Source: Phoronis australis (lineage: Eukaryota; Animalia; Phoronida). Taken from it: 64,000 nucleotides of DNA. Of the stretch, positions 2,735-64,000 are shown piece after piece. The DNA lies in NCBI GenBank assembly GCA_002633005.1, contig NMRA01000279.1, forward strand, positions 466,882 through 530,881. The letters run 5' to 3'. The position numbers and the translations under genes are program-made. The notes under the pieces are model-generated. The model searched no databases. It saw only the letters and a list, made by a program, of their open reading frames with translations, and was not told the DNA's origin. Numbering within the stretch: position 1 is the stretch's first letter; each line of letters opens with the position of its first letter.

Positions 2735-5700
2735 TTATTTATTGTCATAAAAAGGCGCTGGGTTGTCGTACCTGCAAATACACGTAGACATGCGTTGGAT
2801 GTGTGTCATTAATGTGCTCGTAGACAATTTCTCTCATACTTGTGAAAAATGTCAGCAATCGCAAGCTTCTAGGGGTGATTATTAGTATACGAAAAAGGCT
2901 ATTTAGATGACGCATATGTCAAGCGTTACTGTCTTCCGAATAGAAAATTTTTGTTACATTTAATGAACCTACATCAAGGAACTCCTTAGACAGAGGCAAA
3001 TGTGAAAAAAATGCCATTCGAAGGGAAATCCCTAGTCGGATTAGTACATCCATTATCAATTTAACAGGAAGACATTTGCCAATCTCCAAAGAACTTTGCA
3101 ATGTTTGAGGATTAGAGCTACCGATGCAGAAAAATGCCACTAGAGGACAACAGAATAGTTGGACCATTTCAAAATCTTCGTCACTCAGTAACACATCTAC
3201 CAATTTTCATGATGACCCCCTTAGCGTTTGGGCGGATGCAAGAACTGATTACAAAAAATCGAAAATAATAACAAGAGCAACGCAGAGCGTTAAAAGGCGC
3301 CCAAGAATGCATCGCAAATGGAGTGCTTTTAGGGTTATTTATTTGTATCATAAAAATGGCCACTAGATGGCACAAAAACGTACAATCCATCAAAAAACTA
3401 GAACATGCCATATTCCATAAAAATGTGTCAAGAAACTTCAGAAAAACAAGGAAAAACAGAATAAAATGAAACTGCCACTTAAGTGGGGCACAGTATGAAC
3501 GTACATGCCAATTTTCATAACCATTCTGCGAGCGATTTGGTTGATAGAGGGGTGGACGCAAAAACAGCAAACATGGCCTCTAGGTGGCGCAAACTACGTC
3601 GCATCCATCCGAAAACGGGAGAACAACGTCATCTCAGTAATACGTGCCTACATATCGAATTTTATGAAATTCCGTTGAAGACTTTTGAAGAAACAGAGGT
3701 AAACGTAAAAAACTAAAAATTGCCAATAGGGGGCACACCGGTAGTCGGATCCGTCCGAAAATCATCGTCATCTGTTGTCAACGTCATATAAATACACTTC
3801 TTAAATTTCGTAATGATCCCTTAAACGGTTTAGGAGATACGGCCATAAGCGCAAACAAAAAAACTGCCACTATGAGGCGCCACAGTAGTTCAAATCGTCG
3901 GAAAATCACCGTCAGCCGTCCACTTCATAGTAAAAAGATACATGCCAATTTTCACGATCATCCTTTAAGCGGTTTGGTTGATAGAGGGTGGACGCAAAAA
4001 CAGACTTGAAAACAGTAAAAATGACCGCTAGGTGGCGCAAACTACGTTGAACCCATCCGAAAACGGCAGGACAGCGTCATTTCACTAATAGGTGCCTATA
4101 TATCAAATTTTATGAAAATCCGTTAAGGACTTTTGAAGATACAGAGGTAAACGTAAAAAACCTTAAAATTGCCACAAGGGCGCACACCGGTAGTCGGATC
4201 CGTTCGAGAGCTCGCTCATGCCGTCCCATCCACAAAAGGAACACATGTGCAAAATTTCATTGATGAACATACGTCAAGGCGTTTTGGAGATAGAGCAGCG
4301 GACACCGGACGGACGGACGGACGGACGGACAGAGATGAAGGCATAATGCGTCCACATATAAATATGTGGGCGCATAAAAATGGTCAGTACGTGGTGTAGA
4401 ATATATGGAATCCACCCAATATTGTTGTCTTCTTGATAAAACAAACTTGTTTGCCAAATTTCATGAACTGTCGAAGAACTCGGAAGATCTCCCCTTTTAG
4501 CTACTTCCTTTGATTAACACAAGGCTTAGAAGGTTTGTTTGAATCAACCCAGCCTTATAAATTACAGGTCTTAAAATTTCCCGGATGCTAAATATGTAGT
4601 GCAAGTTCCGGAAAGATGCCGAAACATAAGCACTTGATTAAATGCATCTATTAGATATAGACAGGACCTTTCTTGGATAGGTAAAAAGTTCATCTTCATG
4701 ATTATACTGTACGTGAAGAGTGGAGGTCTGTAACTACTAAAGTAGTGCGCAAATGCCTCAGTGTATCACTCTAGAGCAGGAATGCGTTAAAGTGATAGCT
4801 TACCTGAAAAACGCATCCCGATCGTGATGTCCTTTTTGGCGAGGAAAGGAGTGGTCCTGCAAAGTAGCATATTTTATTGTTACACAACCGCATCACAGCT
4901 ACAGGAAAAGTTAACGCGAAAACGAAGACTGGGTGCAACCCGTTTCGGTTGGCAAAAATCCTAAGAGAGCTAATTTTCAAACAATTATTTGGAAATCTAG
5001 AAATTTGATGCATACAGCGAAACATTAACGAGGACTCGTCGTACAGTATTACAGGCAACTGACACACAATGTCTAAGCCCGAGCTAACAGAGAAATCATC
5101 TTGGTAAGAAACATGTGGAACCGGGCGACCAGAAGAAACAGGAAATATCGGATTTTCCAAACGCATTAATCTGAAGAGTTGTCACTCATCAGTAAGAATT
5201 TATTGCAAAGTATTTACTTGACCGTTCGGTAATTGTTCATTCTCGCCATCCCACTCGATTGGCATTTCCCACGCTTCATCGCCAGTGGCCCCAATGGTAA
5301 TTCCTCTGGGGAAAGACTCCGCTCCGTGGTAGCCGCCTGACAAAGGGTCTTGAACCAAGCGTGGGAGTGATGGTATATTTGCTGTAGCAGAGAGAAGATG
5401 AACTTAATTTTTGCGGGAGCAATCAACATTTTAGCTGCTCTACACAACCCAGGAGCTTTGCTATGTACAGTGGCACACGGTAATGAATTCAACAGTTGGT
5501 ATACGGATCTAAGCCATCAAAGCCTACTCATATGGTTCAGATCTAAGCACATGCAAGAAAATGTTTTACCTTGCGCAATACAAGAAATAAATAGTTTTTG
5601 TGTTGAACATAGTATACCTATCAGTTTTCCCACCTCTATTCGTCCAACAGCATTCTACGGCGGCAACTTTGTGCGTTAGTAGAGGTCGAGAAAGCAGTCA

Positions 5701-6010
5701 CTACACCCTAACGAGATCTTTGGTTAAACTACTGTGAGATGTTGCGTGACCTCGCCAAACTCACAAGACATTGCCTTTACTTAACGCAAGGCAGAAAGAA
5801 AAAATTGATCACAACGTGTGATTGAACTGATGTAAACAAGCAAATATTCCGCAAGAAGACAACTAACTGGTTCTGTGAACGGTTATGTCGCTGGCTCTGT
5901 CCCATTTGTCGCCTACGTAGGAGAATCCCGTCGGGTCGCCTTTATTGCCGATGAGTTGTTGGTTAAAGAACCCTTTCCTTCCCGTCGAGTAGGCGTCCTG
6001 ATAGGCTAGT
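2735..6010 (-). CDS. Four cytoplasmic-tail exons: 5868-6010, 5218-5381, 4804-4856, 2735-2771 (stop)
   Basis: Phases chain 2-1, 1-0, 0-2, 2-stop. Translation: [132 protein letters not shown]. The ORF track misses these frames. Confidence 0.75.
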
Positions 6011-42000: not shown

Positions 42001-45000
42001 CGTCAGACCCACATAGGCGTGTAGCGTCACCACCTGTCGATTCATAGCCGTCGTCACAGGAATAAGTAGCTGTTCCTTGGTAAGTGGTGGTTGTAGTCGT
42101 GAAGTTTGAATTGGAGTTAGCGTTTGGTTGGCCACAATTCTTTGCTGAAGTTAATTAGAAGAGAAAGACGAATTACCATGTAATCTCAAACTTCTTTAGA
42201 AACTTGCTGAGGTATCAAGTGTCGCTCGAGATGACTTGAAAATCTAATATCCCTGGAGTGGGATTTTAAACAAATGCTTGATATTAAATTGGAAGCCGGC
42301 AAGAAGGTTGGTGACACGACATTTCTTCCGGATCCTTGTAGATTCATCTTTGTGAATTCAGTGTCCATAATGTCTGGACCCGCGTGAACAACACCGAAAA
42401 AGAAGAACGAAATGAACAAGAACAGTCGAAAGGTTTTCACCAGCAAAAACAAAAATTAAATAATTATTCAGAATCAGAGGCTGCACTTGGTTGACTTCAT
42501 CGCTTGTGCACAGTCAACCGGTTAAGACATGTGGTTGGTTCTCGATGGCGAATTTTGTTTTACATATCAATCAGGTGCAAGCCGTAAGTCAAAATGGGGA
42601 ACCAATCAGATGTCTTAAACCGGTAGAATCGGCTGGAACGGCGAACTCGATCACGTGGAGTGAATGTCCATCAAGAAGCATCAGTGATCCGCATCCGCGT
42701 TTCGATTAACAGACTTTCGAGTCCACCATTATGTAATACCTTATTTCTCCAGTACGTATCCCAAACCCGATTGACAAGAAGTTACTCTACGTACTTGTGC
42801 ATGACAAAGCAGTTCCAGTCCACGTTCCGTCCGACCCACATAGGCGGGTAACGTTACCAGCTGTCGGCTCATAGCCGTCGTCACAGGAATAAGTAGCTGT
42901 TCCTTGGTAAGTGGTGGTTGTAGTCGTGAAGTTTGAATTTGCGTTGGTGTTTGGCTGGCCACAACTCTTAACTGAAAATTAATAAAACAATAAAACAGGT
43001 ACATTAACGTGTGCTCTCGTACATGTAGGTCTCTTTTGGTAATGTGCTTACGTTTCTTGTTATTCAAGTTCATTTAAAATTCTATCGTTTTTGGAATAGA
43101 TTATTAACCCCATTGCAGAAAGAGATGGAAATGAAATGTGATCTAGATTCTTATGTTCACTTGAAAATTCAATCGTTATTGGAATGCTTAGTGATGATAT
43201 TTGAAATGATGCCTTAGGAAATTGGAGTCCGACACGTTAACAAGTGTCACGATAGTTCTTCCAAATTACTCTCCCTTCATGTTTGTGAAGAGAATTTCGA
43301 CAATTTTTCTACGTTTTCGTCCACAACACCGTAACAGATTAACAAGTCGATGGTTCAGCACACTAACTACTTTCATCATCGAAACGTAAATGAAATTATC
43401 CTTAATGAGAAATCTAACAAGTACAACTTTTGAGGGTTGAAAAGGGTTACAGAGCATGATTTTGTTTCCAAGAACAGGATGGGAAAGTTGTCTTAAAAAT
43501 CTGTTAATAGGCCAAAGTCGGGTTCAGTATCCTTTTAAGTAGCACTTTTGTCGGAAGTTTGTCGGAGTTTAATTCTTTGATGAAGTAACATTTGTCGAAA
43601 CGTTTCCGATAGTTGGACAGAAAGAAATCAGATTAGGTCGGAGATAAAATGAGTGGCTTTTTGTGTCCAAGATTTTCCGAACTTCGACACTGCAAACTTT
43701 AAATTAAACAAGACCAACGGAGAATGCATTGCAAATGGTGTGCTTTTATAGTTATTTATTTGTATCATAAAAATGGCCACTAAATGGCGCAAAAACATAC
43801 AATCCATCCAAAAACAGGAACATGCCGTATTTCATAAAAATCTGTCAAGGAACTTCAGAGAAACAAAGAAAAACAGAATAAAATGAAATTGCCACTAGTG
43901 GCCACAGTGTCCGTTGGATCCGCCTGAAAGTTGTCGTCGTATGTTATTATCTTCATATTAATACAATTGCTAAATTTAATAAAGATCCTGCATTGGGTTT
44001 ATGAGATACAACTACGGGCGCAAAACATAACTGCCTCTAGGAGGTGCCACAGTAGTCAGTCACCATCATCAAAGGTCGTCTTCACACTGAGAACATAATA
44101 TATGAAAATTTTGAAATGATTTGGTTGATACAGGGGTAGATGCCTAAAACAAGATTTGAAAACAGCAAAAATGGCCACTAGGTCGTGCAAAATAAATCGA
44201 TTCTATCCAAAAACAGAAAAATAGCGTCATCACACCAATAGAAGCCTACATTACAAATTTTATGAAAATCTGTTGTGGACGTTTGAAGATACAGAGTTAA
44301 AGGTAAAAAAATAAATTGCCACTAGGGGGCACACCGGTAGTCAGATCCGTTCGAAAGTTCGCTCATGTCGTCCCATTCATGAAAGAAACATATGTGCCAA
44401 ATTTCGTGAACGTATGTCAAAGGGTTTTGGAAATAGAGCAGCGGACGCCGGACACCAGACAGTCGGTCGCCGCACAGACGGACGGACGGACGGACGGACG
44501 GACGGAGATGACGGCATAAGGCGTCCACATATAAATATGTGGGCGCATAAAAAGCACTCTATAACGATTAACTCTCCAATTTGGCGTCACTCAACACCAA
44601 AAAATAAGAGCAATAACAGTACTGAACAGGGTAATTTCTATTTAAATCATGGAAGGAGCTTCAACACGCCAAAAGAAATCAATAAAAAGATCCGATGATT
44701 CAGACGAAGGCCAACATTTGGAGTCACTCTTACCATCGAAAAAGTGACCTTCACCGTTTTCACGCCTACAAATGTACTGGAATAACTCACTTGTGCACTC
44801 TAGTGCGGTACCACTCCATGATTTATTAGCCTGGCAAGTCCGTGAGACGTTGCCACCAGATTGTTCATAGCCAGAGTCACAGGCATAGTTGGCGATGTCC
44901 TCAAATGTGTCCGTATCAGATGTAACAGTTGAATTGGAATTGACGTTTGGGGAACCACATCCAACTCCTAAAAGGGCGTTATTGAAACATGACCAATCTT

Positions 45001-51000: not shown

Positions 51001-54000
51001 ACAAATGTTATGCACAATACAACATTTCGGGAGCAAGAAAGAAAAGAAATATCAAAATGAGAGACCGCCATTGTTTGATTTAGGTATAAATGGGCCTTGT
51101 CAATACTTTTTTCCGTTGTGTGTGCTCGATAATCACTTCCTCCTGAGAGATCCATCAGTTGTAAGGCAGAAGTCGTCATCGAGAACAACGAGATGTCTAA
51201 AGCAATTATTCAACAATGCTGTGGCTGAAAAATCTATCAATTCAAAGCAGTGTCTCAAGAAGAAATATCGGTCACTGATATCCCCCGTTTCGACTGCCAG
51301 TTTTCTTAAGGACTGTTATGTAATATTTTAGGTTTGCACGAAACCAAAAGCAAATACAAAATAGTACGTACTTGTGCATGACAAAGCAGTTCCAGTCCAA
51401 GCTCCGTCAGACCCACATAGACGTGTAGTGTTACCACCTGTCGATTCATAGCCGTCGTCACAGGAATAAGTAGCTGTTCCTTGGTAAGTGGTGGATGTAG
51501 TCGTGACGTTGGAATTTGCGTTGGCGGTTGGTTGGCCACAATCTTTTACTGGAAATTATGAAAAGAGAAAGAGGCCCATTAACATGTAAGTTCACACGTC
51601 TCCTTTACAAATGTACTCACGTTCTTATATTAGTCGAATTTCATTACAACTCTCTCGTTATTAATATAGATCATGATGAAGCAAGTGGTAGAGCTTAATT
51701 ATGATGCTTTAAATCATCGGAGGCCAACACGCACATGGCAGTTAGTGTCACAATAGTGTATGCAAAATCTTAAGCATTGATGTTCATGAAGTCTGTCGAT
51801 AACTTTTAAGCTCTCGTTGGCACAGGAAAAGAGATATTATCAATATAACAAAAGTTAGGCACAATACAACATTTCAGGAGGATGAAAGAAAAGAAATAAA
51901 AAAATGAAAGACCGCCATTTTTGACTTACCCAGAAATGGGCCTGGTCAATACTTTGTTTCCGTTGTTTGTGCTCGGTAATCAATTCTTTCTGAGAGATCA
52001 ATCAGTTGTAAGGCAGAAGTCGTCATCGAGAACAACGAGATGTCTAAAGCAATTATTCAACAATGCTGCGGCGGAAAAATCTATCAATTGCAAGCAGTGT
52101 CTAAAGACGAAATATCGGTCATTGAGATCCCCCGATTCGACTGTCAGTTTTTCTTAAGGACTGTTTTGTAATATTTTAGGTTTCCACGAAACCAAAAGCA
52201 AATACAAAATAGTACGTACTTGTACATGACAAAGCAGTTCCAGTCCAAGCTCCGTCAGACCCACATAGGCGTGTAGTGTTACCACCTGTCGATTCATAGC
52301 CGTCGTCACAGGAATAAGTAGCTGTTCCTTGGTAAGTGGTGGATGTAGTCGTGACGTTGGAATTTGCGTTGGCGGTTGGTTGGCCACAATTTTTTACTGG
52401 AAATTATGAAAAGAGAAAGAGGCACATTAACATGTAAGTTCACACGTCTCCTTTACAAATATACTCACTTTCTTATATTTTTCGAATTTCATTACAACTC
52501 TCTCGTTATTAATGTAGATCATGATGAAGCAAATGGTAGAGCTTAATTATGATGCTTTAAGTCATTGGAGGCCAACACGCACATGGCAGTTAGTGTCACA
52601 ATAGTGTATGCAAAATCTTATGCATTGATGTTCATGAAGACTGTCGATAAGTTTAAGGCTCTCGTTGGCACAGGAAAAGAGATATTATAATTATAACAAA
52701 AGTTAGGTACAATACAACATTTAAGGAGCAAGAAACAAAAGAAATATAAAAAATGAGAGACTGACATTGTTTGATCTAGCCAGAAATGGGCCTGGTCAAT
52801 ATTTGTTTCCGTTGTTTGTGCTCGATAACCACTTCCATCTGAGAGATCAATCAGTTGTAAGGCAGAAGTCGTCATCGAGAACAACGAGATGTCTAAAGCA
52901 ATTATTCAACATTGCTGCGGCGGAAAATTCTATCAATTGCAAGCAGTGTTTAAAGAAGAAATATCGGTCATTGAGATCCCCCGTTTCGACTGCCAGTTTT
53001 TCTCAATGACTGTTATGTAATATTTTAGGTTTGCACAAAAGCAAAGCAAATACTAAATAGTACGTACTTGTGCATGACAAAGCAGTTCCAGTCCAAGCTC
53101 CGTCAGACCCACATAGGCGTGTAGTGTTACCACCTGTCGATTCATAGCCGTCGTCACAGGAATAAGTAGCTGTTCCTTGGTAAGTGGTGGATGTAGTCGT
53201 GACGTTGGAATTTGCGTTGGCGGTTGGTTGGCCACAATCTTTTACTGAAAATTATGAAAAGAGAAAGAGGCACATTAACATAAAAGTTCACACGTCTCCT
53301 TTACAAATGTACTCACGTTCTTATATTAGTCGAATTTCGTTACAACTCCCTCGTTATGAATATAGATCATGATGAAGCAACTGGTAGAGCTTAATTACGA
53401 TGGTTTAAGTCATTGGAGGCCAACACGCCCATGGCAGTTAGTGTCACGATTGAGTATGCAAAATCTAAAGCATTGATGTTCATGAACACTTTCGATAACT
53501 TTAAGGCTCTCGTTGGCACAGGAAAAGAGATATTATAAATATAACAAATATTAGGCACAATACAACATTTCAGGAGCAAGAAAGAAAAGAACTATAAAAA
53601 ATGAGAGACTGCCACTGTTTGATTTAGCCAGAAATGGGCCTGATCAATACTTTGTTTCCGTTGCTTGTGTTCGATAACCACTTCGTTCTGAGAGATCAAA
53701 CAGTTGTAAGGCAGAAGTCGTCATCGAGAACAACGAGATGTCTAAAGCAATTATTCAACAATGCTGCGGCCGAAAAATGTATCAATTGCGAGCAGTGTCT
53801 CAAGAAGAAATATCGGTCATTGAGATCCCCCGTATCGACTGCCAGTTTTTCTTAAGGACTGTTATGTAATATTTTAGGTTTGCACGAAACCAAAAGCAAA
53901 TACAAAATAGTACGTACATGTGCATGACAAAGCAGTTCCAGTCCAAGCTCCGTCAGACCCACATAGGCGTGTAGTGTTACCACCTGTCGATTCATAGCCG

Positions 54001-57000
54001 TCGTCACAGGAATAAGTAGCTGTTCCTTGGTAAGTGATGGATGTAGTCGTGACGCTGGAATTTGCGTTGGCGGTTGGTTGGCCACAATCTTTTACTGGAA
54101 ATTATGAAAAGAGAAAGAGGCACATTAACATGTAAGTTCACACGTTTCCTTTACAAATGTACTCACTTTCTTATATTGGTCGAATTTCATTACAACTCTC
54201 TCGTTATTAATGTAGATCATGATGAAGCAAATGGTAGAGCTTAATTATGATGCTTTAAGTCATTGGAGGCCAACACGCACATGGCAGTTAGTGTCACAAT
54301 AGTGTATGCAAAATCTTATGCATTGATGTTCATGAAGACTGTCGATAAGTTTAAGGCTCTCGTAGCCACAGGAAAAGAGATATGATAGTTATAACAAAAG
54401 TTAGGTACAATACAACATTTAAGGAGCAAGAAAGAAAAGAAATATAAAAAGTGAGAGACTGACATTGTTTGATTTAGCCAGAAATGGGCCTGGTCAATAC
54501 TTTGTTTCCGTTGTTTGTGCTCGATAACCACTTCCATCTGAGAGATCAATCAGTGGAAGGCAGAAGTCGTCATCGAGAACAACGAGATGTCTAAAGCAAT
54601 TATTCAGCAATGTTGCGGCGGAAACTTCTATCAATTGCAAGCAGTGTCTAAAGAAGAAATATCGGTCATTGAGATCCCCCGTTTCGACTGCCAGTTTTTC
54701 TCAATGACTGTTATGTAATATTTTAGGTTTGCACAAAAGCAAAGCAAATACTAAATAGTACGTACTTGTGCATGACAAAGCAGTTCCAGTCCAAGCTCCG
54801 TCAGACCCACATAGGCGTGTAGTGTTACCACCTGTCGATTCATAGCCGTCGTCACAGGAATAAGTAGCTGTTCCTTGGTAAGTGGTGGATGTAGTCGTGA
54901 CGTTGGAATTTGCGTTGGCGGTTGGTTGGCCACAATCTTTTACTGGAAATTATGAAAAGAGAAAGAGGCACATTAACATGTAAGTTCACACGTCTCCTTT
55001 ACAAATGTACTCACGTTCTTATATTGGTCGAATTTCATTACAACTCTCTCGCTATTAATATAGATCATGATGAAGCAAATGGTAGAGCTTAATTATGATG
55101 TTGTAAGTCATTGGAGGCCAACACGCACATGGCAGTTAGTGTCAAAATAGTGTATGCAAAATCTTATGCATTGATGTCCATGAAGACTGTCGATAACTTT
55201 AAGGCTCTCGTTGGCACAGGAAAAGAGATATTATAAATATAACAAAAGTTAGGCACAATACAACATCTCAGGATCAAGAAAGGATAGAAATATAAAAAAT
55301 GAGAGACTGACATTGTTTGATTTAGCCAGAAATGGGCCTGGTCAATACCTTGTTTCCGCTGTTTGTGCTCGATAATCACTTGATTCTGAGAGATTAATCA
55401 GTTGTAAGGCAGAAGTCGTCATCGAGAACAACGAGATGTCTCAAGCAATTATTCAACAATGCTTCGGCGGAAAAATCTTTCAATTGCAAGCAGTGTCTAA
55501 AGAAGAAATATCGGTCATTGAGATCCCCCGTTTCGACTGCCAGGTTTTCTTAAGGCGTGGTATGTAATATTTTAGGTTTGCACGAAACAAAAGCAAATAC
55601 AAAAGAGTACGTACTTGTGCATGACAAAGCAGTTCCAGTCCAAGCTCCGTCAGACCCACATAGGCGTGTAGTGTTACCACCTGTCGATTTATAGCCGACG
55701 TCACAGGAATAAGTAGCTGTTCCTTGGTAAGTGGTGGATGTAGTCGTGACGTTGGAATTTGCGTTGGCGGTTGGTTGGCCACAATCTTTTACTGAAAATT
55801 ATGAAAACAGAAAGAGGCACATTAACATAAAAGTTCACACGTCTCCTTTACAAATGTACTCACGTTCTTATATTAGTCGAATTTCATTACAACTCTCTCG
55901 TTATGAATATAGATCATGATGAAGCAACTGGTAGAGCTTAATTATGATGGTTTAAGTCATTGGAGGCCAACACCCCATGGCAGTTAGTGTCACGATTGAG
56001 TATGCAAAATCTAAAGCATTGATGTTCATGAACACTTTCGATAACTTTAAGGCTCTCGTTGGCACAGGAAAAGAGATATTATAAATATAACAAATATTAG
56101 GCACAATACAACATTTCAGGAGCAAGAAAGAAAAGAAATATAAAAAATGAGAGACTGACATTGTTTGATCTAGCCAGAAATGGGCCTGGTCAATACTTTG
56201 TTTCCGTTGTTTGTACTCGATAACCACTTCCATCTGAGAGATCAAACAGTTGTAAGGCAGAAGTCGTCATCGAGAACAACGAGATGTCTAAAGCAATTAT
56301 TCAACAATGCTGCGGCGGAAAATTCTATCAATTGCAAGCAGTGTCTAAAGAAGAAATATCGGTCATTGAGATCCCCGTTTCGACTGCCAGTTTTTCTCAA
56401 TGACTGTTATGTAATATTTTAGGTTTGCACAAAAGCAAAGCAAATACTAAATAGTACGTACGTGTGCATGACAAAGCAGTTCCAGTCCAAGCTCCGTCAG
56501 ACCCACATAGGCGTGTAGTGTTACCACCTGTCGATTCATAGCCGTCGTCACAGGAATAAGTAGCTGTTCCTTGGTAAGTGGTGGATGTAGTCGTGACGTT
56601 GGAATTTGAGTTGGCGGTTGGTTGGCCACAATCTTTTACTGGGAATTATGAAAAGAGAAAGAGGCACATTAACATGTAAGTTCACACGTCTCGTTTACAA
56701 ATGTACTCACTTTCTTATATTCGTCGAATTTCATTACAACTCTCTCGTTATTAATGTAGATCATGATGAAGCAAATGGTAGAGCTTAATTATGCTGCTTT
56801 AAGTCATTGGAGGCCAACACGCACATGGCAGTTAGTGTCACAATAGTGTATGCAAAATCTTATGCATTGATGTTCATGAAGACTGTAGATAAGTTTAAGG
56901 CTCTCGTTGGCACAGGAAAAGGGATATTATAATTATAACAAAAGTTAGGTACAATAAAACATTTAAGGAGCAAGAAAGAAAAGAAATGTAAAAAATGAGA

Positions 57001-60000
57001 GACTGACATTGTTTGATTTAGCCAGAAATGGGCCTGGTCAATACTTTGTTTCCGTTGTTTGTGTTCGATAACCTCTTCCTTCTGAGAGATCAATCAGTTT
57101 TAAGGCAGAAGTCGTCATCGAGAACAACGAGATGTCTAAAGCAATTATTCAACAATGCTGCGGCGGAAAACTATCAATTGGAAGCAGTGTCTCAAGACGA
57201 AATATCGGTCATTGAGATCCCCCGTTTCGACTGCCAGTTTTTCTCAATGACTACATGTAGGTTTGCACGAAACCAAAGGAAAATACAAAATAATACGTAC
57301 TTGTGCATGACAAAGCAGTTCCAGTCCAAGCTCCGTCAGATTCACATAGGCGTGTAGTGTTACCACCTGTCGATTCATAGCCGTCGTCACATGAATAAGT
57401 AGCTGTTCCTTGGTAAGTGGTGGATGTAGTCGTGACGTTGGAATTTGCGTTGGCGGTTGGTTGGCCACAATTTATTACTGGAAATTATGAAAAGAGAAAG
57501 AGGCACATTAACATATAAGTTCACAAGTCTCCTTTACAAATGTACTCACTTTCTTATATTGGTCGAATTTCATTACAACTCTCTCGTTATTAATCTAGAT
57601 CATGATGAAGCAAATGGTAGATCTTAATTATGATCCTTTAAGTCATTGGAGACCAACACGCACATGGCAGTTAGTGTCACAATAGTGTATGCAAAATCTT
57701 ATGCATTGATGTCATGAAGACTTTCGATAAGTTTAAGGCTCTCGTTGGAACAGGAAAAGAGATATTATAAATATAACAAAAGTTAGGTACAATACAACAT
57801 TAAAGGAGCCAGAAAGAAAAGAAATATAAAAAATGAGAGACTGACATTGTTTGATTTAGCCAGAAATGGGCCTGGTCAATACTTTGTTTCCGTTGTTTGT
57901 GCTCGATAACCACATCCTTCTGAGAGATCTATCAGCTGTAAGGCAGGAGTCGTCATCGAGAACAACGAGATGTCTAAAGCAATTATTCAACAATGCTGCT
58001 ACGGAAAAATCTATCAATTGCAAGCAGCGTCTAAAGAAGAAATATCGGTCATTGAGATCAACCGTTTCGACTGCCAGTTTTTCTTAAGGACTGTTATGTA
58101 ATATTTTAGGTTTGCACGAAACTAAAAGCAAATACAAAATAGTACGTACTTGTGCATGACAAAGCAGTTCCAGTCCAAGCTCCGTCAGACGCACATAGGC
58201 GTGTAGTGTTACCACCTGTCGATTCATAGCCGTCGTCACATGAATAAGTAGCTGTTCCTTGGTAAGTGGTGGATGTAGTCGTGACGTTGGAATTTGCGTT
58301 GACGGTTGGTTGGCCACAATCTTTTACTGGAAATTATGAAAAGAGAAAGAGGCACATTAACATGTATGTTCACACGTCTCCTTTACAAATGTACTCACGT
58401 TCTTATATTGGTCGAATTTCATTACAACTCTCTCGTTATTAATATAGATCATGATGAAGCAACTGGTAAAGCTTAATTATGATGGTTTAAGTCATTGGAG
58501 GCCAACACGCACATGGCAGTTAGTGTCACATTAGAGTATGCAAAATCTTAAGCATTGATGTTCATGAAGACTGTGGATAACTTCAAGGCTCTTGTTGGCA
58601 CAGGAAAAGAGATATTATAAATATAACAAATGTTAGGCACAATACAACATTTCAGGAAGAAGAAAGAAAAGAAATACAAGAGCAACGCAGAGCGTTGAAA
58701 TGCGCCCACCATTGCACCGCATACGGTATCCTTCTAGGGTTGGTTATTAGTACCATAAAGTGGCCAGTAGAGGGCATATATGTAGTATGTTGAACTTTGC
58801 AAAATGGAAAGGCATGGTCCATGTCTCCTCAATAGGCTAGGGGCAAAATGTGAGTAATCTTGACAATACAAGCACATCCTATACACCCGCTGCTTAAAGC
58901 ACCACAGAAACATAGAATTAAAAACAAATTTACCAACATACGAGATTAGCACAGCATTAGAATGCCAGAAACAAATTTCTACTTGGAACTTTCCCTTCAT
59001 AGTCATGAAGTAACACAAAGTACACACCTGAAGAAAATACAGAGGTTAATGTAAAATACTAAAATTGCCACTAGAGGAATACCGGTAGTCAGAATCATCC
59101 TAAAGTCGTCATCGTCCGTTGTCAACATCACATAAATACACTTGCTAAATTTAGTAATAATGCGTCCACATATAAATATGTGGGCGCACAATAAAGATCC
59201 TGCAAACAGTTTGGGAGATACAGCCATGGACGCAAAAAAACAAAACTACCACTAGGAGGCGCCACAGTAGTCCAAATCATCTGAAAATCATTGTCAGCTC
59301 TCTTCCTTATAGTAAGCACATACACGCCAATTTTCACAATCATCTTTTGAGCGGTTTGGTTGATAGAGGGATGGACGCAAAAATACAGACTCGAAAACAC
59401 TAAAAATGGCCACTAGGTGGCGCAAACTATGTTAAATCCATCTGAAAACAGGAGGATAGCGTCATCTTACTAATAGGTGCCTACATACCAAATTTCATGA
59501 AAATCCGTTAAGGACTTTTGAAGATACAAAGGTAAGCGTAAAAAACTAAAATTGCCACCAGCGGGCACACCGGTAGTCGAATCCGTCCAAAAGTCGTCAT
59601 CTTCCGTTGTTAACATCATATATATATACTTACACAATTTCGTAAAGATCCTGCGAACGGTTTAGGAGATACAGCCATAGGCGCAAAAAATAAAACTGCC
59701 ACTAGGAGGTTCCACAGTAGTCGAAATCGTCGGAAAATCATCGTCAACCGTCCTCTACATAGTAAGCATATACATGCCAATTTTCACAATCATCTTTTGA
59801 GCGGTTTGGTTGATAGAGGGGTGGACGCACAAAAACAGACTCGAAAACACTAAAATTGGCCACTAGGTGGCGCAAACTATGTCGAATCCATCTGAAAATG
59901 GGAGGATAGCGTTATCTCACTAACAGGTGCCTACATACCAAATTTCATGAAAATCCAATAAGGACTTGTAAAGATACAAAGGTAAGCGTAAAAAAACTAA

Positions 60001-63000
60001 AATTGCGACTAGGGGGCACACCGGTAGTCGAATCCGTCCAAAAGTCGTGATCTTCCGTTGTTAACATCATATAAATATACTTACAAAATTTCGTAAAGAT
60101 CCTGCGAACGGTTTAGGAGATACAGCCATAGGCGCTAAAAAAACAAAACTGCCACTAGGAGGTTCCACAGTAGTCGAAATCGTCGGAAAATCATCGTCAA
60201 CCGTCCTCTACATAGTAAGCATATACATGCCAATTTTCACAATCATCCTTTGAGCGGTTTGGTTGATAGAGGGGTGGACGCAAAAATACAGACTCGAAAA
60301 CAGTAAAAATGGCCACTAGGTGGCGCAAACTATGTCGAATCCATCTGAAAACGGGAGGATAGCGTCATCTCACTAATAGGTGCCTACATACCAAATTTCA
60401 TGAAAATCCATTCAGGACTTTTGAAGATACAAAGGTAAGCGTAAAAAACTAAAATTGCCACTAGGGGGCACACCGGTAGTCGGATCCGTCCAAAAGTCGT
60501 CATCTTCCGTTGTTAACATCATATAAATATACTTACACAATTTCGTAAAGATCCTGCGAACGGTTTAGGAGATACAGCCATAGGCGCAAAAAAAAAAAAA
60601 CTGCCACTAGGAGGCGCCACAGTAGTCGAAATCGTCGGAAAATCATCGTCAACCGTCCTCTACATAGTAAGCATATACATGCCAATTTTCACAATCATCC
60701 TTTGAGCGGTTTGGTTGATAGAGGGGTGGACGCACAAAAACAGACTCGAAAACACTAAAAATGGCCACTAGGTGGCGCAAACTATGTCGAATCCATCTGA
60801 AAACGGGAGGATAGCGTCATCTCACTAATAGGTGCCTACATACCAAATTTCATGAAAATCCGGACTTTTGAAGATACAAAGGTAAGCGTAAAAAAATAAA
60901 ATTGCCACTAGGGGGCACACCGGTAGACAGATCCGTCCGAAAGTTCGCACATGCCGTCCCATTCATGATTGGAACATATGCCAAATTTCCTGAACGTATG
61001 TCAAAGGGTTTGGAGATAGAGCAGCGGACGCCGGACGCCGGACGCCGGACGCTGCCCGGACGGACGGACGGACGGACGGACGGACGGACGGACGGACGGA
61101 CGGACAGAGATGACGGCATAATGCGTCCACATATAAATATGTGGACGCATAATAAAAAATGAGAGACCGCCATTGTTTGACTTACCCAGAAATGGGCCTG
61201 GTCAATACTTTGTTTCCGTTGTTTGTGCTCGATAATCACTTCTTTCCGAGAGATCAATCAGTTGTAAGGCAGAAGTCGTCATCGAGAACAACGAGATGTC
61301 TAAAGCAATTATTCAACAATGCTGCGACGGAAAAATCTATCAATTGCAAGCAGTGTCTAAAGAAGAAATATCGGTCATTGAGATCCCCCGTTTCGACTGC
61401 CAGTTTTTCTTAAGGACTGTTATGTAATATTTTAGATTTGCACGAAACCAAAACCAAATACAAAATAGTACGTACTTGTGCATGACAAAGCAGTTCCAGT
61501 CCAAGCTCCGTCAGACCCACATAGGCGTGTAGTGTTACCACCTGTCGATTCATAGCCGTCGTCACAGGAATAAGTAGCTGTTCCTTGGTAAGTGGTGGAT
61601 GTAGTGGTGACGTTGGAATTTGCGTTGGCGGTTGGTTGGCCACAATCTTTTACTGGAAATTATAAAAAGAGAAAGAGGCACATTAACATGTAAGTTCACA
61701 AGTCTCCTTTACAAATGTACTCACTTTCTTATATTGGTCGAATTTCATTACAACTCTCTCGTTATTAATGTAGATCATGATGAAGCAAATGGTAGAGCTT
61801 AATTATGATTCTTTAAGTCATTGGAGACCAACACGCACATGGCAGTTAGTGTCACAGTAGTGTATGCAAAATCTTATGCATTGATGTTCATGAAGACTGT
61901 CGATAAGTTTAAGGCTCTCGTTGGCACAGAAAAAGAGATATTATAAATATAACAAAAGTTAGGCACAATACAACATTAAAGGAGCCGGAAAGAAAAGAAA
62001 TATAAAAAATGAGAGACGGACATTGTTTGATTTAGCCAGAAATGGGATGGTCAATTCTTTGTTTCCGTTGTTTGTGTTCAATCACCACTTCCTTTTGAGA
62101 GATCAATCAGTTGTAAGGCAGAAGTCGTCATTGAGAACAACGAGATGTCTAAAGGAATTATTCAACAATACTGCGGTGGAAAAAATCGACTGCCAGTTTT
62201 TCTTAAGGACTGTTATGTAATATTTTAGGTTTGCACGAAACCAAAAGCAAATACAAAATAGTACGTACTTGTGCATGACAAAGCAGTTCCAGTCCAAGCT
62301 CCGTCAGACCCACATAGGCGTGTAGTGTTACCACCTGTCGATTCATAGCCGTCGTCACAGGAATAAGTAGCTGTTCCTTGGTAAGTGGTGGATGTAGTCG
62401 TGACGTTGGAATTTGCGTTGGCGGTTGGTTGGCCACAATCTTGTACTGGAAATTATGAAAAGAGAAAGAGGCACAGTAACATGAACATGCAAGTTCACAC
62501 GTTTCCTTTACAAATGTACTAACGTTCTTATATTGGTCGAATTCCATTACAACTGTCTCGTTATTAATATAGATCATGATGAAGCAAATGGTAGAGCTTA
62601 ATTATGATGCTTTAAATCATCGGAGGCCAACACGCACATGGCACTTAGTGTCACAATAGTGTATGAAAAATCTTAAGCATTGATGTTCATGAAGTCTGTC
62701 GATAACTTTAAGGCTCTCGTTGGCACAGGAAAAGAGGTATTATAAATATAAGAAAAGTTAGGCACAATACAACATTTCAGGAGGTAGAAAGAAAAGAAAT
62801 ATAAAAAATGAGAGACCGCCATTGTTTGACTTACCCAGAAATGGGCCTGGTCAATACTTTGTTTCCGTTGTTTGTGCTCGATAATCACTTCTTTCCGAGA
62901 GATCAATCAGTTGTATGGCAGAAGTCGTCATCGAGAACAACGAGATGTCTAAAGCAATTAGTCAACAATGCTGCGCCGTAAAACTCTATCAATTGGAAGC

Positions 63001-64000
63001 AGTGTCTCAAGACGAAATATCGGTCATTGAGATCCCCCGTTTCGACTGCCAGTTTTTTTCAATGACTGTTATGTAATATTTTAGGTTTGCACGAAAGCAA
63101 AGCAAATACTAAATAGTACGTACTTGTACATGATAAAGCAGTTCCAGTCCAAGCTCCGTCAGACCCACATAGGCGTGTAGTGTTACCACCTGTCGATTTA
63201 TAGCCGTCGTCACAGGAATAAGTAGCTGTTCCTTGGTAAGTGGTGGATGTAGTGGTGACGTTGGAATTTGCGTTGGCGGTTGGTTGGCCACAATCTTTTA
63301 CTGGAAATTATGAAAAGAGAAAGAGGCACATTAACATGTAAATTCACACGTCTCCTTTAGAAATGTACTCACGTTCTTATATTAGTCGAATTTCATTAGA
63401 ACTCTCTCGTTATTAATATAGATCATGATGAAGCAAATGGTAGAGCTTAATTATGATGCTTTAAGTCATTGGAGGCCAACACGCACATGGCAGTTAAAAT
63501 GACAATTGAATATGCAAAATCTTAAGCATTGATGTTCATGAAGACTGTCGATAACTTTAAGGCTCTCGTTGGCACAGGAAAAGAGATATTATAAATATAA
63601 CAAATGTTAGGCACAATACAACATTTCAGGAGCAAGAAAGAAAAGAAATATAAAAAATGAGAGACTGCCATTGTTTGATTTAGCCAGAAATGGGCTTGGT
63701 CAATACTTAGTTTCCGTTGTTTGTGTTCAATCACCACTTCCTTTTGAGAGATCAATCAGTTGTAAGGCAGAAGTCGTCATTGAGAACAACGAGATGTCTA
63801 AAGGAATTATTCAACAATGCTGGGGTGGAAAAATCTATCAATTGCAAGCAGTTTCTCAAGAAGAATTATCGGGCATTGAGATCCCCCGTTACGACTGCAA
63901 GTTTTTCTTAAGGACTGTTATGTGATATTTTAGGTTTGCACGAAACCAAAAGCAAATACAAAATAGTACGTACTTGTGCATGACAAAGCAGTTCCAGTCC
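2735..64000 (-). CDS. Giant multi-exon type I transmembrane mucin-like protein (Sushi/CCP repeats, 2 SEA, NIDO-AMOP-VWD, many EGF/cbEGF, Thr-rich repeat, TM); MUC4/SUSD2/Mesh-like; 5'-partial
   Basis: 62 exons found by hand, each with GT donor and AG acceptor on the minus strand, compatible intron phases and an open spliced frame ending in TAA at 2735-2737. Summed CDS about 12,300 nt. Domains recognised from Cys spacing and motifs. Start codon and signal peptide lie outside the window. Confidence 0.92.
3271..4380 (-). mobile_element. Non-autonomous Helentron (HINE; DINE-1/pearl-like), copy 1, about 2 internal ~450-bp repeats
   Basis: Read on the minus strand: T-rich start, hairpin ATGCGCCCACATA-TTTA-TATGTGGACGCAT, (GTCC)n microsatellite, tandem repeats, 3' subterminal IR, stem-loop AACGCTCTGCGTT, end CTTGT. 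Homologous to 43708-44553 and 58676-61151. Confidence 0.82.
6421..6597 (-). CDS. Exon: end of juxtamembrane EGF, transmembrane helix and basic stop-transfer segment
   Basis: Acceptor ttttttacag, donor gtaagt. Translation [12 protein letters not shown]...[38 protein letters not shown]. Confidence 0.92.
7158..7233 (-). CDS. Exon: first half of juxtamembrane EGF domain
   Basis: [25 protein letters not shown]; phase 1-2, splices in frame to the TM exon. Confidence 0.9.
9397..10308 (-). CDS. Membrane-proximal SEA domain, three exons: 10199-10308, 9902-9963, 9397-9551
   Basis: [36 protein letters not shown]|[21 protein letters not shown]|[14 protein letters not shown]...; contains the SEA GSVV motif; phases 1-0, 0-2, 2-1. 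Confidence 0.88.
12458..14660 (-). CDS. 2,203-nt exon: 8 tandem EGF/calcium-binding EGF domains followed by the Thr/Ser/Glu/Gln-rich mucin repeat
   Basis: Lies inside ORF 12411..14807. Acceptor ttacag at 14661-14663, donor gtaagt at 12452-12457. Repeated D(I/V)DEC...[24 protein letters not shown] motif. Confidence 0.95.
12519..13670 (-). repeat. Coding minisatellite, 32 x 36 bp (12-aa unit, consensus [10 protein letters not shown](P/L)A), mucin-type O-glycosylation stalk
   Basis: Units counted in the translation. The sequence at 12781-12960 is identical to 13141-13320 (360-bp offset). Confidence 0.95.
15199..15612. mobile_element. TTAA-flanked MITE (Kolobok-like), copy A
   Basis: TTAA on both sides, imperfect TIRs containing GTCTCATTAAA. 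It is the reverse-complement homologue of 19174-19603. Confidence 0.7.
15717..22980 (-). CDS. EGF/cbEGF exons: 22816-22980, 21031-21159, 20107-20235, 19699-19824, 18690-18818, 16877-17131, 15717-15970
   Basis: Examples: [97 protein letters not shown]. Canonical splice sites, mostly phase 1-1. Confidence 0.92.
16035..16103. mobile_element. Tiny MITE remnant (CAGGGGCGGATC...ATCCGCCACT ends)
   Basis: GC-rich 69-bp island with imperfect inverted ends. A similar right end (ATCCGCCACTG) occurs near 34125-34135. Confidence 0.45.
19174..19603. mobile_element. TTAA-flanked MITE (Kolobok-like), copy B
   Basis: TTAA-AGACGCTATGTCCCATTAAA ... TTTAATGAGACATAGCGTCT-TTAA: 19/20-bp TIR with a TTAA target duplication and AG...CT ends. 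Confidence 0.8.
21405..22319. other. Direct duplication (463 bp and 451 bp) on either side of a single N at 21868; probable uncollapsed haplotype overlap
   Basis: 21405-21867 repeats as 21869-22319 with a few SNPs and a 12-bp indel. The junction is exactly the N. Confidence 0.85.
23102..23174. mobile_element. Tiny GC-rich MITE with 13-bp TIR
   Basis: CATGGGCGGCGCA ... TGCGCCGCCCATG, a perfect inverted pair. Related copies in the opposite orientation at 33562-33697. Confidence 0.6.
23432..23953 (-). CDS. Ig/cadherin-like beta-sandwich plus degenerate EGF, exons 23734-23953 and 23432-23607
   Basis: [37 protein letters not shown]...VQWTPS...[10 protein letters not shown]...CLCSTGWEG; phases 1-2, 2-1. 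The fold assignment is by resemblance only. Confidence 0.75.
24195..27784 (-). CDS. VWD domain and following Cys-containing segment, exons 27560-27784, 26611-26724, 25200-25394, 24195-24431
   Basis: [27 protein letters not shown]...FQLQGRT..., [17 protein letters not shown]...[21 protein letters not shown]. These match MUC4/SUSD2-type VWD hallmarks. Confidence 0.92.
29166..29822 (-). CDS. AMOP domain, exons 29578-29822 and 29166-29388
   Basis: GKWVHRLD...KCLTWA...DCPP...|[11 protein letters not shown]...[10 protein letters not shown]...CELFHERRP. The CCYD, P..WCC and F..RRP motifs are typical of AMOP. Confidence 0.88.
30171..30270. repeat. Degenerate 16-bp minisatellite (about 6 copies, GTTCACT.CTCCT.AA-like)
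   Basis: gttcactgctcctaaa gttcacttctcctgaa gttcactactctgaat gtttactagtccaaat gtccactactgcgcag gtttacttctctgaat. Confidence 0.6.
30341..30841. mobile_element. Degraded foldback/MITE with long imperfect TIRs built from ~21-bp subrepeats
   Basis: The left arm (AATGTGCTTAATAAACGCGTAGTTTTACTTAATCAACGCG) is mirrored on the right (CGCGTTGATTAAGTAAAACTAG...GATTAAGCACATT). Confidence 0.55.
31582..34356 (-). CDS. NIDO domain, exons 34217-34356, 32617-32922, 31582-31801
   Basis: [16 protein letters not shown] and [19 protein letters not shown] motifs typical of NIDO; phases 1-0, 0-0, 0-1. Confidence 0.9.
33562..33697. mobile_element. Two adjacent copies of the same tiny GC-rich MITE family as 23102-23174
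   Basis: Both contain TAGCCCC(C)AC.TTTTTCA.TGCTGCGCCGCC.ATG. Confidence 0.55.
34579..34698 (-). CDS. cbEGF exon between the Sushi block and NIDO
   Basis: [40 protein letters not shown]; 120 nt, phase 1-1. Confidence 0.92.
35245..46691 (-). CDS. Fourteen diverged Sushi/CCP exons: 35245-35421, 35763-35939, 36237-36413, 37244-37420, 37689-37865, 38734-38910, 39025-39201, 39673-39849, 40229-40405, 41968-42144, 42795-42971, 44791-44967, 45380-45556, 46512-46691
   Basis: Each is 177 nt (one is 180 nt), phase 1-1, with the CCP pattern C..P....N...........A.Y.C..GY...GG...R.C...G.W.G....C. Confidence 0.92.
36855..37099. mobile_element. Probable MITE
   Basis: TGCTCACACCCAG / CTAGGTGCGAGCA (11/13 inverted match), with G-runs near both ends. 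Confidence 0.4.
39365..39580. mobile_element. Small TIR element with a central perfect 60-bp palindrome
   Basis: TIR CAATTGACCTATCGC / GCGATAGGTCAACTG (14/15). Palindrome at 39432-39491. Confidence 0.6.
43708..44553 (-). mobile_element. HINE copy 2 (more degraded; 3' stem-loop region deleted)
   Basis: Same terminal hairpin (about 44521-44548), (GGAC)n tract and internal repeat unit as copy 1. Confidence 0.8.
47233..48362 (-). CDS. Second (N-terminal) SEA domain embedded among the Sushi exons, exons 48250-48362, 47888-47949, 47233-47405
   Basis: [37 protein letters not shown]|[21 protein letters not shown]|[12 protein letters not shown]...; GSVL motif. Same three-exon, phase 1-0/0-2/2-1 layout as the SEA at 9397-10308. 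Confidence 0.85.
48862..49038 (-). CDS. Sushi/CCP exon, paralogous to 44791-44967 and 45380-45556
   Basis: [59 protein letters not shown]; 177 nt, phase 1-1. Confidence 0.92.
49675..64000 (-). CDS. Fifteen near-identical Sushi exons: 49675-49851, 50525-50701, 51372-51548, 52220-52396, 53068-53244, 53918-54094, 54766-54942, 55615-55791, 56462-56638, 57301-57477, 58150-58326, 61476-61652, 62269-62445, 63124-63300, 63974->64000 (partial)
   Basis: Consensus [59 protein letters not shown]. All complete copies are 177 nt, phase 1-1, with AG acceptor and GTACGT donor retained. Confidence 0.9.
58676..61151 (-). mobile_element. HINE copy 3, 2,476 bp, about 4 full tandem ~450-bp repeats, inserted into one intron of the Sushi array
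   Basis: Neighbouring array units give the empty site (gaaat^ataaaaaatgagagac); no target-site duplication. Subterminal IR ATGCGCCCAC near 58700, stem-loop CAACGCAGAGCGTTG, long (GGAC)n near 61057-61106, terminal hairpin about 61121-61150. Confidence 0.88.

What the first reader, a model, noticed from the sequence alone, without database searches (positions are those of the whole stretch)
58761..60920. Transposon-borne array of CTCF-consensus motifs phased every ~150 bp
Seen: each ~450-bp internal repeat of the HINE has three diverged subunits, and the best-conserved part of each is a co-oriented motif: TGCCACTAGGGGGCAC, TGCCACTAGGAGGCGC or TGGCCACTAGGTGGCGC. Motif cores start at 59068, 59249, 59410, 59555, 59699, 59860, 60006, 60152, 60313, 60458, 60604, 60765 and 60905; from 59249 onward the spacing cycles 161/145/145 bp. 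A further TGGCCAGTAGAGGGCA lies at 58761. Established: the bilaterian CTCF core consensus is CCASYAGRKGGCRS, and 59410, 59860, 60313, 60458, 60765 and 60905 match it exactly. Inference: this rolling-circle element may spread expandable cassettes of insulator/CTCF sites at roughly nucleosome-core spacing, here inside a copy-number-unstable exon array where they could affect looping, Pol II pausing or splicing.
Basis: partly seen in the sequence, partly recalled or inferred. Interest (0 to 1): 0.85.

Follow-up and report, generated by a model that had tools for sequence, protein, structure and literature searches.

The report
Rolling-circle transposon carrying CTCF-site arrays
A high-copy, protein-free rolling-circle transposon of a marine animal is built from ~150-base units whose best-preserved part matches the binding site of the genome-organising protein CTCF, which the element likely keeps for its own benefit; binding is untested and no role for this particular copy was found.

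Summary
Observation confirmed. 58676-61152 is a minus-strand HINE (non-autonomous Helentron) with mixed flanks at both ends and roughly 10^4 copies (read depth, rough). Its 452-bp repeat has three subunits, 53-67% identical. The CTCF-consensus 14-mer is their best-kept block (12 of 14 columns against 50 of 131) and varies only at degenerate consensus positions; 6 of 14 sites match exactly, and 0 of 3,000 permuted consensuses fit as well. The same backbone and register occur in an unrelated repeat (L005), while oyster HINEs mostly lack the core, so the motif fills a swappable slot. Best reading: the element lineage likely keeps CTCF sites to stay open or unsilenced. Side result: HINE RNA is 29-72:1 element-sense in three stranded runs, with mixed flanks, so transcribed copies appear co-oriented with host transcripts. 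The scan earlier noted a motif slot in oyster-like HINE repeats on other DNA (e1-9925826).

The parts
58676..61152 (-). HINE (non-autonomous Helentron) copy E3, 2,477 bp, no target-site duplication, inserted at a single T (element strand) in a T-rich intron site
   Evidence: Loose ends with mixed flanks before 58676 (247 contigs of X1, 1,135 reads of X13) and behind 61152 (87 and 556); comparison with empty sites in neighbouring array units
61118..61153 (-). 5' palindrome: 5' subTIR (61141-61150) plus inner inverted repeat (61121-61130)
   Evidence: 17-nt arms, 94% complementary; predicted 13-bp stem, -14.1 kcal/mol
61025..61105 (-). Microsatellite, (GTCC)12 plus four 7-mers, behind the 5' palindrome
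   Evidence: Tandem Repeats Finder; GTCC is among the microsatellites of oyster Cg_HINEs
59192..60944 (.). Central higher-order repeat, 452 bp x 3.9, each of three subunits A (161), B (145-146), C (144-146)
   Evidence: subunit consensuses 53-67% identical; three full copies 92-96% identical
59410..60778 (+). B-type CTCF-consensus sites, exact, at 59410, 59860, 60313, 60765
59068..60918 (+). C-type sites: exact at 60458, 60905; 1 mismatch at 59555, 60006; 4 mismatches at 59068
59249..60617 (+). A-type sites (weakest): 1 mismatch at 59249, 60604; 3 mismatches at 59699, 60152
59326..60865 (+). Second conserved box of the backbone (CAAATTTC..AAATC type), 77 bp behind the motif start in 11 of 11 units
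   Evidence: 78-80 bp in 5 of 5 units of L005
58764..58777 (+). Terminal B-like site (1 mismatch), 88 bp from the element's 3' end; matched by 3360 and 43777 in the other copies
59155..59191 (-). 37-bp insert of the family's own 5' palindrome inside the first C-type subunit; rare in the family
   Evidence: Joint 59154-59192 in 729+17 reads of X13 and in contigs of X1, X7, X8
58700..58709 (-). 3' subTIR (9 of 10 bases match the 5' subTIR of this copy, 10 of 10 that of E1 and E2)
   Evidence: termini of three copies
58683..58697 (-). 3' hairpin, 6-bp stem, 3-nt loop
61480..61647 (-). Sushi/CCP exon upstream of the insertion (host mucin-4/mesh-like gene, ~850-bp exon array)
58154..58321 (-). Sushi/CCP exon downstream of the insertion
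3270..4382 (-). Older copy E1 of the same family (about 80-84% identical), behind the last coding exon, in minus-strand transcribed DNA
43708..44553 (-). Older copy E2 (about 72-75% identical), intronic, 3' hairpin partly deleted

Best explanation
This is a high-copy non-autonomous Helentron (HINE) whose ~150-bp central subunits carry, in a fixed slot of a shared backbone, a sequence matching the CTCF consensus that is likely a true site for host CTCF, likely kept by selection on the transposon lineage rather than on the host locus. Shown: HINE anatomy, dispersal, the three-subunit repeat, the conservation and specificity of the motif, its fixed register to a second box. Inferred: CTCF binds the B and C sites; binding would keep the repeat block nucleosome-poor or shield it from spreading silencing, so copies with intact sites would be mobilised more often by the partner Rep/helicase; once inserted, a copy's sites decay nearly neutrally. 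The strong B and C sites (145 bp apart) and the weak A site leave a 306-bp gap per repeat that could take one nucleosome (speculative). Any effect on the host gene would be a by-product.
For: Motif columns invariant across the A/B/C consensuses: 12 of 14 against 50 of 131 flank columns (Fisher p=0.001; best-window permutation p=0.04); G/C columns 9 of 10 inside against 14 of 52 outside. With L005 the three variable columns are positions 5, 9 and 13, all degenerate in the consensus (Y, K, R) (consensus as printed in PMC6746451). Summed mismatches of A, B, C to the consensus = 1; 0 of 3,000 letter-permuted consensuses reach fewer than 4; 0 of 3,000 shuffles of unit B give an exact match. Backbone shared with an unrelated 146-bp repeat (42-47% identical) with the same motif-to-box register. 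Oyster HINE arrays show a similar backbone with other slot sequences in the rows seen, and only 142 CCACYAG-type 7-mers in a table of 7,151 arrays (cells cut at 400 letters), so the motif is not a general Helentron transposition signal. A second, unrelated TTAA-ended repeat in the window also carries one CTCF-like site in both of its copies. Family ends fixed, flanks mixed, depth ratio about 6,000-12,000 at the 3' end (the tool warns this is no true copy number).
Against: No binding data. Host CTCF and even bilaterian status are not shown: no genome is held and the only gene in the window has relatives at about 20-50% identity (most exons) in vertebrates, a sea anemone, a brachiopod, an echinoderm and snails alike. 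A/B/C share one ancestor, so the conservation is one event, and the window-corrected p is only 0.04. L001-L005 were fetched with a pattern that demanded the motif, so their motifs match by construction (5 loci, about 3 families, in 241 million records). The benefit to the element is inferred, not shown. In individual copies the motif is not significantly better kept than flanks: E1 4/56 vs 68/533 (p=0.29), E2 6/42 vs 96/382 (p=0.13), E3 7/112 vs 48/1087 (p=0.35); this fits lineage-level selection but also fits no function at all today. Invertebrate CTCF may have shifted binding preferences (passages).
Confidence: 0.5

Rival explanations
1. The 14-mer is bound by another protein, a host zinc-finger factor with CTCF-like specificity or the Helentron's own Rep/helicase, possibly as a single-strand hairpin.
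For: The B site is a short palindrome and is predicted to fold (-4.3 kcal/mol). Host CTCF is unverified.
Against: A and C sites break the palindrome at the variable position and fold weakly (-1.8, -2.5) yet keep the CTCF-defining letters. Oyster HINEs, moved by the same kind of enzyme, mostly lack the core. The conserved transposition signals of Helentrons are described at the termini (PMC4067079, passages).
Confidence: 0.18
2. The unit is selected for DNA mechanics (A-tracts alternating with a GC block, nucleosome positioning or bending), and the GC block resembles CTCF's site by inheritance or chance.
For: The second-best conserved block is the A/T box (10 of 14 columns). Unit length is the generic HINE size. 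Helitron minisatellites insulate mechanically in C. elegans, which lacks CTCF, and oyster Helitron satellites are said to share such signatures (10.64898/2026.08.08.743475, passages).
Against: Composition does not explain the match: 0 of 3,000 permuted consensuses fit. No single 10-10.6 bp AA/TT peak stood out in the array (5.2 times the mean, below neighbouring bands). Variation falls on the degenerate positions of the consensus.
Confidence: 0.17
3. One reading: the host uses these cassettes as insulators or Pol II/splicing modulators, here inside the sushi-exon array.
For: Motif match is real. All 3 copies in the window share the host gene's orientation, and family RNA is strongly one-stranded, which some form of host selection could cause.
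Against: 1 of 14 array units carries it; older copies decay; spacing leaves no room for a nucleosome per site; no evidence of CTCF loops in protostomes is reported (passages).
Confidence: 0.15

Closest known systems
Cg_HINE elements of the Pacific oyster (PMC7492417; sections 5 and 7, passages and rows of supplement 2 seen)
   Same: 5' subTIR + IR, GTCC microsatellite, short arrays of 140-180 bp central repeats, 3' subTIR and hairpin, dispersed in thousands of copies; similar A/T-box backbone by eye.
   Different: The paper never mentions CTCF (0 occurrences) and the arrays rarely hold the CCACYAG core; here the unit is a three-subunit 452-bp higher-order repeat with the CTCF consensus in each subunit.
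DINE-1/HINE, non-autonomous Helentrons (PMC4067079; passages seen)
   Same: All structural features, T-rich target, no coding capacity.
   Different: Target of this copy is a single T, not TT; autonomous partner not found here; no motif array described in the passages seen.
Transposon-borne CTCF sites: mammalian B2-type SINEs (Schmidt 2012, seen only as a reference title; content recalled) and zebrafish SINE3-1a and HATN9_DR (PMC9341505, passages)
   Same: A mobile element spreads CTCF motifs through a genome.
   Different: Those carry the site in SINEs or hAT elements of vertebrates with binding evidence; this is a rolling-circle element of an invertebrate with an expandable co-oriented array, binding untested.
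C. elegans Helitrons carrying arrays of HSF-1, LSY-2 and LSL-1 sites (PMC8896005, passages) and Helitron-derived PATC insulators (10.64898/2026.08.08.743475, passages)
   Same: Rolling-circle elements whose internal repeats supply factor sites or barrier activity.
   Different: Canonical Helitrons, short minisatellite units, a host without CTCF.
Helitron-marked sperm loops of Xenopus tropicalis (Shi et al. 2023)
   Same: Links Helitrons to chromatin architecture, by its title.
   Different: Only the title was seen in reference lists; the paper is not held, so whether it reports CTCF motifs in the Helitrons is unknown to me.

Membership tests
HINE / non-autonomous Helentron | 5' subTIR with inner inverted repeat forming a palindrome | tested here: met
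HINE / non-autonomous Helentron | 3' subTIR (11-15 bp) followed by a short hairpin near the 3' end | tested here: met
   10-bp match (9 of 10 in this copy, 10 of 10 in E1), slightly shorter than described; 6-bp hairpin
HINE / non-autonomous Helentron | Microsatellite behind the 5' end and central tandem repeats | tested here: met
HINE / non-autonomous Helentron | No target-site duplication; preference for TT or T-rich targets | tested here: met
   No duplication; T-rich site; the junction itself is a single T rather than TT in this copy
HINE / non-autonomous Helentron | Dispersed, non-coding, fixed ends | tested here: met
   Mixed flanks at both ends in DNA and RNA runs; no credible ORF
HINE / non-autonomous Helentron | Autonomous Rep/helicase/endonuclease partner with the same subTIRs in the genome | not testable with these tools
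   No genome held
CTCF binding site | Match to the core consensus CCASYAGRKGGCRS beyond chance | tested here: met
   6 of 14 sites exact, 11 of 14 within 1 mismatch; shuffle and permutation controls; consensus in PMC6746451
CTCF binding site | Score against a position weight matrix (JASPAR MA0139) | not testable with these tools
   No matrix on hand; only the IUPAC consensus was used
CTCF binding site | Host encodes CTCF (bilaterian that kept it) | tested here: inconclusive
   Host is an animal, phylum unresolved; earlier unchecked notes call it a likely lophotrochozoan
CTCF binding site | Binding in vitro or in vivo | not testable with these tools
   No ChIP, CUT&RUN or ATAC run among the 15 listed
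Host-selected insulator | Motif conserved at the locus relative to flanks | tested here: not met
   No significant difference in three comparisons; low power, and two of three trend towards conservation

The most novel reading that the evidence does not exclude
Helentron-derived HINEs of several animal lineages have loaded the slot of their central repeat with CTCF sites as a selfish chromatin shield. In this genome that would mean on the order of 10^5 motif-bearing subunits in about 10^4 expandable cassettes, nearly all transcribed ones pointing the same way relative to host transcription: a transposon-built, orientation-polarised CTCF landscape in an invertebrate that could titrate CTCF and shape its domains.
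Probability: 0.25. Interest if true: 0.85.

Novelty: new variant of a known kind. Interest (0 to 1): 0.57.

Why it matters
Why HINEs across animals carry ~150-bp central repeats is unexplained. A repeat whose best-kept block is a CTCF consensus makes one answer testable: the repeats recruit host chromatin factors for the element's own gain. It would also supply a large, mobile source of CTCF sites in an invertebrate, where CTCF's role is open. The 29-72:1 strand bias of family RNA is a separate, cheap-to-test lead on how Helentrons choose a target strand or how hosts purge one orientation.

Tried and rejected
Host identification failed: no genome; vWD and sushi exon searches found nothing at E<=0.001; the EGF exon gave generic hits; the Atlas gave no answer; the vWD-adjacent exon gave pan-animal mucin-4/mesh relatives (10 of 22 long hits looked up); Rfam gave 0 matches. 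Viral contigs: 0 matches to the paired-motif pattern. One search listed no indexed RNA holder; that blank is not evidence, and organisms B, C and the marine metagenomes (shares 0.05-0.26) were not used for any taxon or habitat claim. Rejected: spacing as evidence for nucleosome phasing (generic HINE unit size); an element-encoded transcript (no shared start or end, reads run into mixed flanks on both sides); oligo-dT capture as cause of the strand bias (it would favour the A-rich strand, the opposite of what is seen; inference); a 10-bp AA/TT period (no clear peak); the empty-site contig in X1 as proof of polymorphism (it may come from other array units). Literature: 'Helentron'+'CTCF' gave 2 papers, 1 listed, which does not link them; related searches (listings seen) showed no title or abstract on CTCF arrays in HINE repeats. 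The library lacks most subscription papers, two wanted papers were not held, preprint supplements were not seen, and the oyster table was seen only as counts and 22 rows cut at 400 letters.
Full report
Observation. The consensus CCASYAGRKGGCRS, printed as the human genome-wide consensus in PMC6746451 (passage seen), has 19 matches within one mismatch in the window against 0.25 expected; 11 lie in this element, 4 in copy E1, 2 in copy E2 and 2 elsewhere. Six of the 14 sites are exact, five have one mismatch, two have three and one has four. Spacings cycle 161/145-146/144-146, with a last step of 140.

What the element is. It reads as a HINE on the minus strand: a 5' palindrome at 61118-61153, a GTCC microsatellite and a 452-bp repeat in 3.9 copies, a 10-bp 3' subTIR and a 6-bp hairpin. 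These are the features listed for HINEs in PMC4067079 (passages) and PMC7492417 (section 7). Laid contigs and reads break off into mixed flanks before 58676 and behind 61152 (247 and 87 contigs in X1; agreement about 0.4), which fixes the ends and shows dispersal. Neighbouring array units give the empty site: no duplication, a single T as target. Summed depth is 40-50 on unique DNA and 257,000-536,000 over the 3' end; the ratio suggests 6,000-12,000 copies, about 25 Mb and about 10^5 subunits. The tool warns that such depth is no copy number, so these are orders of magnitude only.

Surroundings. The window holds one minus-strand gene of the mucin-4/mesh type (sushi array, NIDO-AMOP-vWD-like exons, EGF repeats, membrane helix; domain names from the translations and relatives, no Pfam scan was run). 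The element sits in an intron of an array of ~850-bp sushi-exon units, 14 in the window and 92-99% identical; only one carries it. Two older copies, E1 and E2, lie in the same orientation.

Is the motif special? The A, B and C consensuses are 53-67% identical. The motif is the best-kept 14-column window: 12 of 14 invariant against 50 of 131 (Fisher p=0.001; corrected for choosing the best window p=0.04); G/C columns 9 of 10 inside against 14 of 52 outside. Permuting the letters of the consensus never came close (summed mismatches 1 observed, at least 4 in 3,000 permutations), and 0 of 3,000 shuffles of unit B gave an exact match. A second box lies 77 bp behind the motif in 11 of 11 units. These subunits share one ancestor, so this is one conserved event, not fourteen.

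Other animals. One scan of metagenome contigs for two motifs 140-170 bp apart gave 5 loci. L005 is a 146-bp repeat, 42-47% identical to A/B/C, with the motif in 5 units (3 exact) and the second box at 78-80 bp. L003/L004 hold a 38-bp array (13 exact sites in L004) next to a microsatellite and a short palindrome, a HINE-like end with the motif on the same strand relative to it as here. L001/L002 are one long AT/GC-phased repeat with two sites. The pattern demanded the motif, so these show existence, not frequency, and their hosts are unknown. With L005 the variable columns are 5, 9 and 13, all degenerate in the consensus. The oyster HINE table (7,151 arrays, cells cut at 400 letters) holds only 142 CCACYAG-type 7-mers, and the 22 rows shown carried other GC-rich words on a similar-looking backbone. 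The motif is therefore a slot filling, not a general transposition signal. A second repeat in this window, with TTAA-flanked inverted ends (15195-15617 and 19169-19607), carries one CTCF-like site in both copies.

Against a role at this locus. Relative to the youngest E3 units, the motif in other units differs 4/56 against 68/533 in flanks (E1, p=0.29), 6/42 against 96/382 (E2, p=0.13) and 7/112 against 48/1087 (E3, p=0.35): no significant protection in single copies, with low power. Units of 140-180 bp are the rule for HINEs, and a 147-bp nucleosome plus bound CTCF does not fit in 145-161 bp (established knowledge). [quoted passage not shown]

Host. It is an animal; the phylum could not be fixed. 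CTCF is described as ancestral to bilaterians and lost in some nematodes and flatworms (PMC10658182, passages). Unchecked earlier notes on this genome call it a likely lophotrochozoan. This is the main open condition.

RNA. In runs X13-X15 the exons of the minus-strand host gene are read almost only with the first mate on + (13-17 against 0 in X13), so that direction marks minus-strand RNA. HINE reads show the same direction at 31:1, 29:1 and 72:1 over E1 and 36:1 over E3 in X13, while four other repeats in the same lay range from 0.3 to 3.3. Reads run into mixed flanks at both ends and no shared start or end lies in the element. The simplest reading is that transcribed copies at many loci are co-oriented with host transcripts. 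Strand-specific insertion or purging of the A-rich orientation (AATAAA 1, 4, 3 on + against 1, 1, 0 on the element strand) could each explain it; the three runs come from one study, and a limited set of highly expressed loci cannot be excluded.

Mechanism. Shown: anatomy, dispersal, motif conservation between subunits, specificity of the match, fixed register, strand bias. Inferred: host CTCF binds B and C sites; this keeps the block open or unsilenced and favours mobilisation by a partner Rep/helicase; selection acts on the active lineage, and inserted copies drift. I give this 0.5, another binding protein 0.18, DNA mechanics 0.17 and host use as insulator or splicing modulator 0.15.

Novelty. 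HINEs with central repeats, transposon-borne CTCF sites and Helitron arrays of factor sites are each known. I found no paper joining CTCF to HINE central repeats in ten searches of the held library (mostly listings seen), but a paper on Helitron-marked loops in Xenopus sperm was not held. The scan had already noted a swappable motif slot in oyster-like HINE repeats and a CTCF minisatellite in an annelid. Verdict: new variant of a known kind, interest 0.57.

Noticed in passing
window 3270-4382 and 58676-61152; runs X13-X15: Family RNA is 29-72:1 in the element's sense direction, with mixed flanks on both sides and no discrete start or end, whereas four other repeats show no such bias: an apparent genome-wide co-orientation with host transcription.
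   Followed up: partly
window 59155-59191: A 37-bp copy of the family's own 5' palindrome is inserted inside a subunit and is absent from most family reads; it may be an aborted rolling-circle insertion that stopped at the first hairpin.
   Followed up: partly
window 61145: This copy's outer 5' arm has become identical to its inner arm (757 of 833 X13 reads carry the other base), making a perfect palindrome at the cost of one subTIR match.
   Followed up: no
window 15195-15617 and 19169-19607: Two inverted copies (74% identical) of a repeat with TTAA-flanked terminal inverted repeats (Kolobok-like by recall), each with one CTCF-like site.
   Followed up: partly
window 49700-64000: Array of at least 14 near-identical (92-99%) ~850-bp exon-intron units, each one sushi exon, running off the window end; two similar units at 42000-43000.
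   Followed up: partly
window 12411-14822: One large exon joins about eight calcium-binding EGF repeats to a 12-residue Thr/Gln-rich mucin repeat (36 bp x 31).
   Followed up: no
window 21390-22319: A 452-bp direct duplication split by a single N; likely an assembly artefact (two haplotypes), unrelated to the HINE despite the equal period.
   Followed up: no
window 3100-3265: A lone diverged HINE-type subunit with a degenerate motif (3137) lies just outside the 3' end of E1.
   Followed up: no
L004 418-1736; L003: 38-bp tandem repeat, nearly every unit a palindromic CTCF-consensus site (13 exact in L004), beside a HINE-like end; shows motif arrays without nucleosome-sized spacing.
   Followed up: partly
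L001, L002: Long repeat with regularly alternating A/T runs and G/C runs and two CTCF-like sites 143 bp apart.
   Followed up: no
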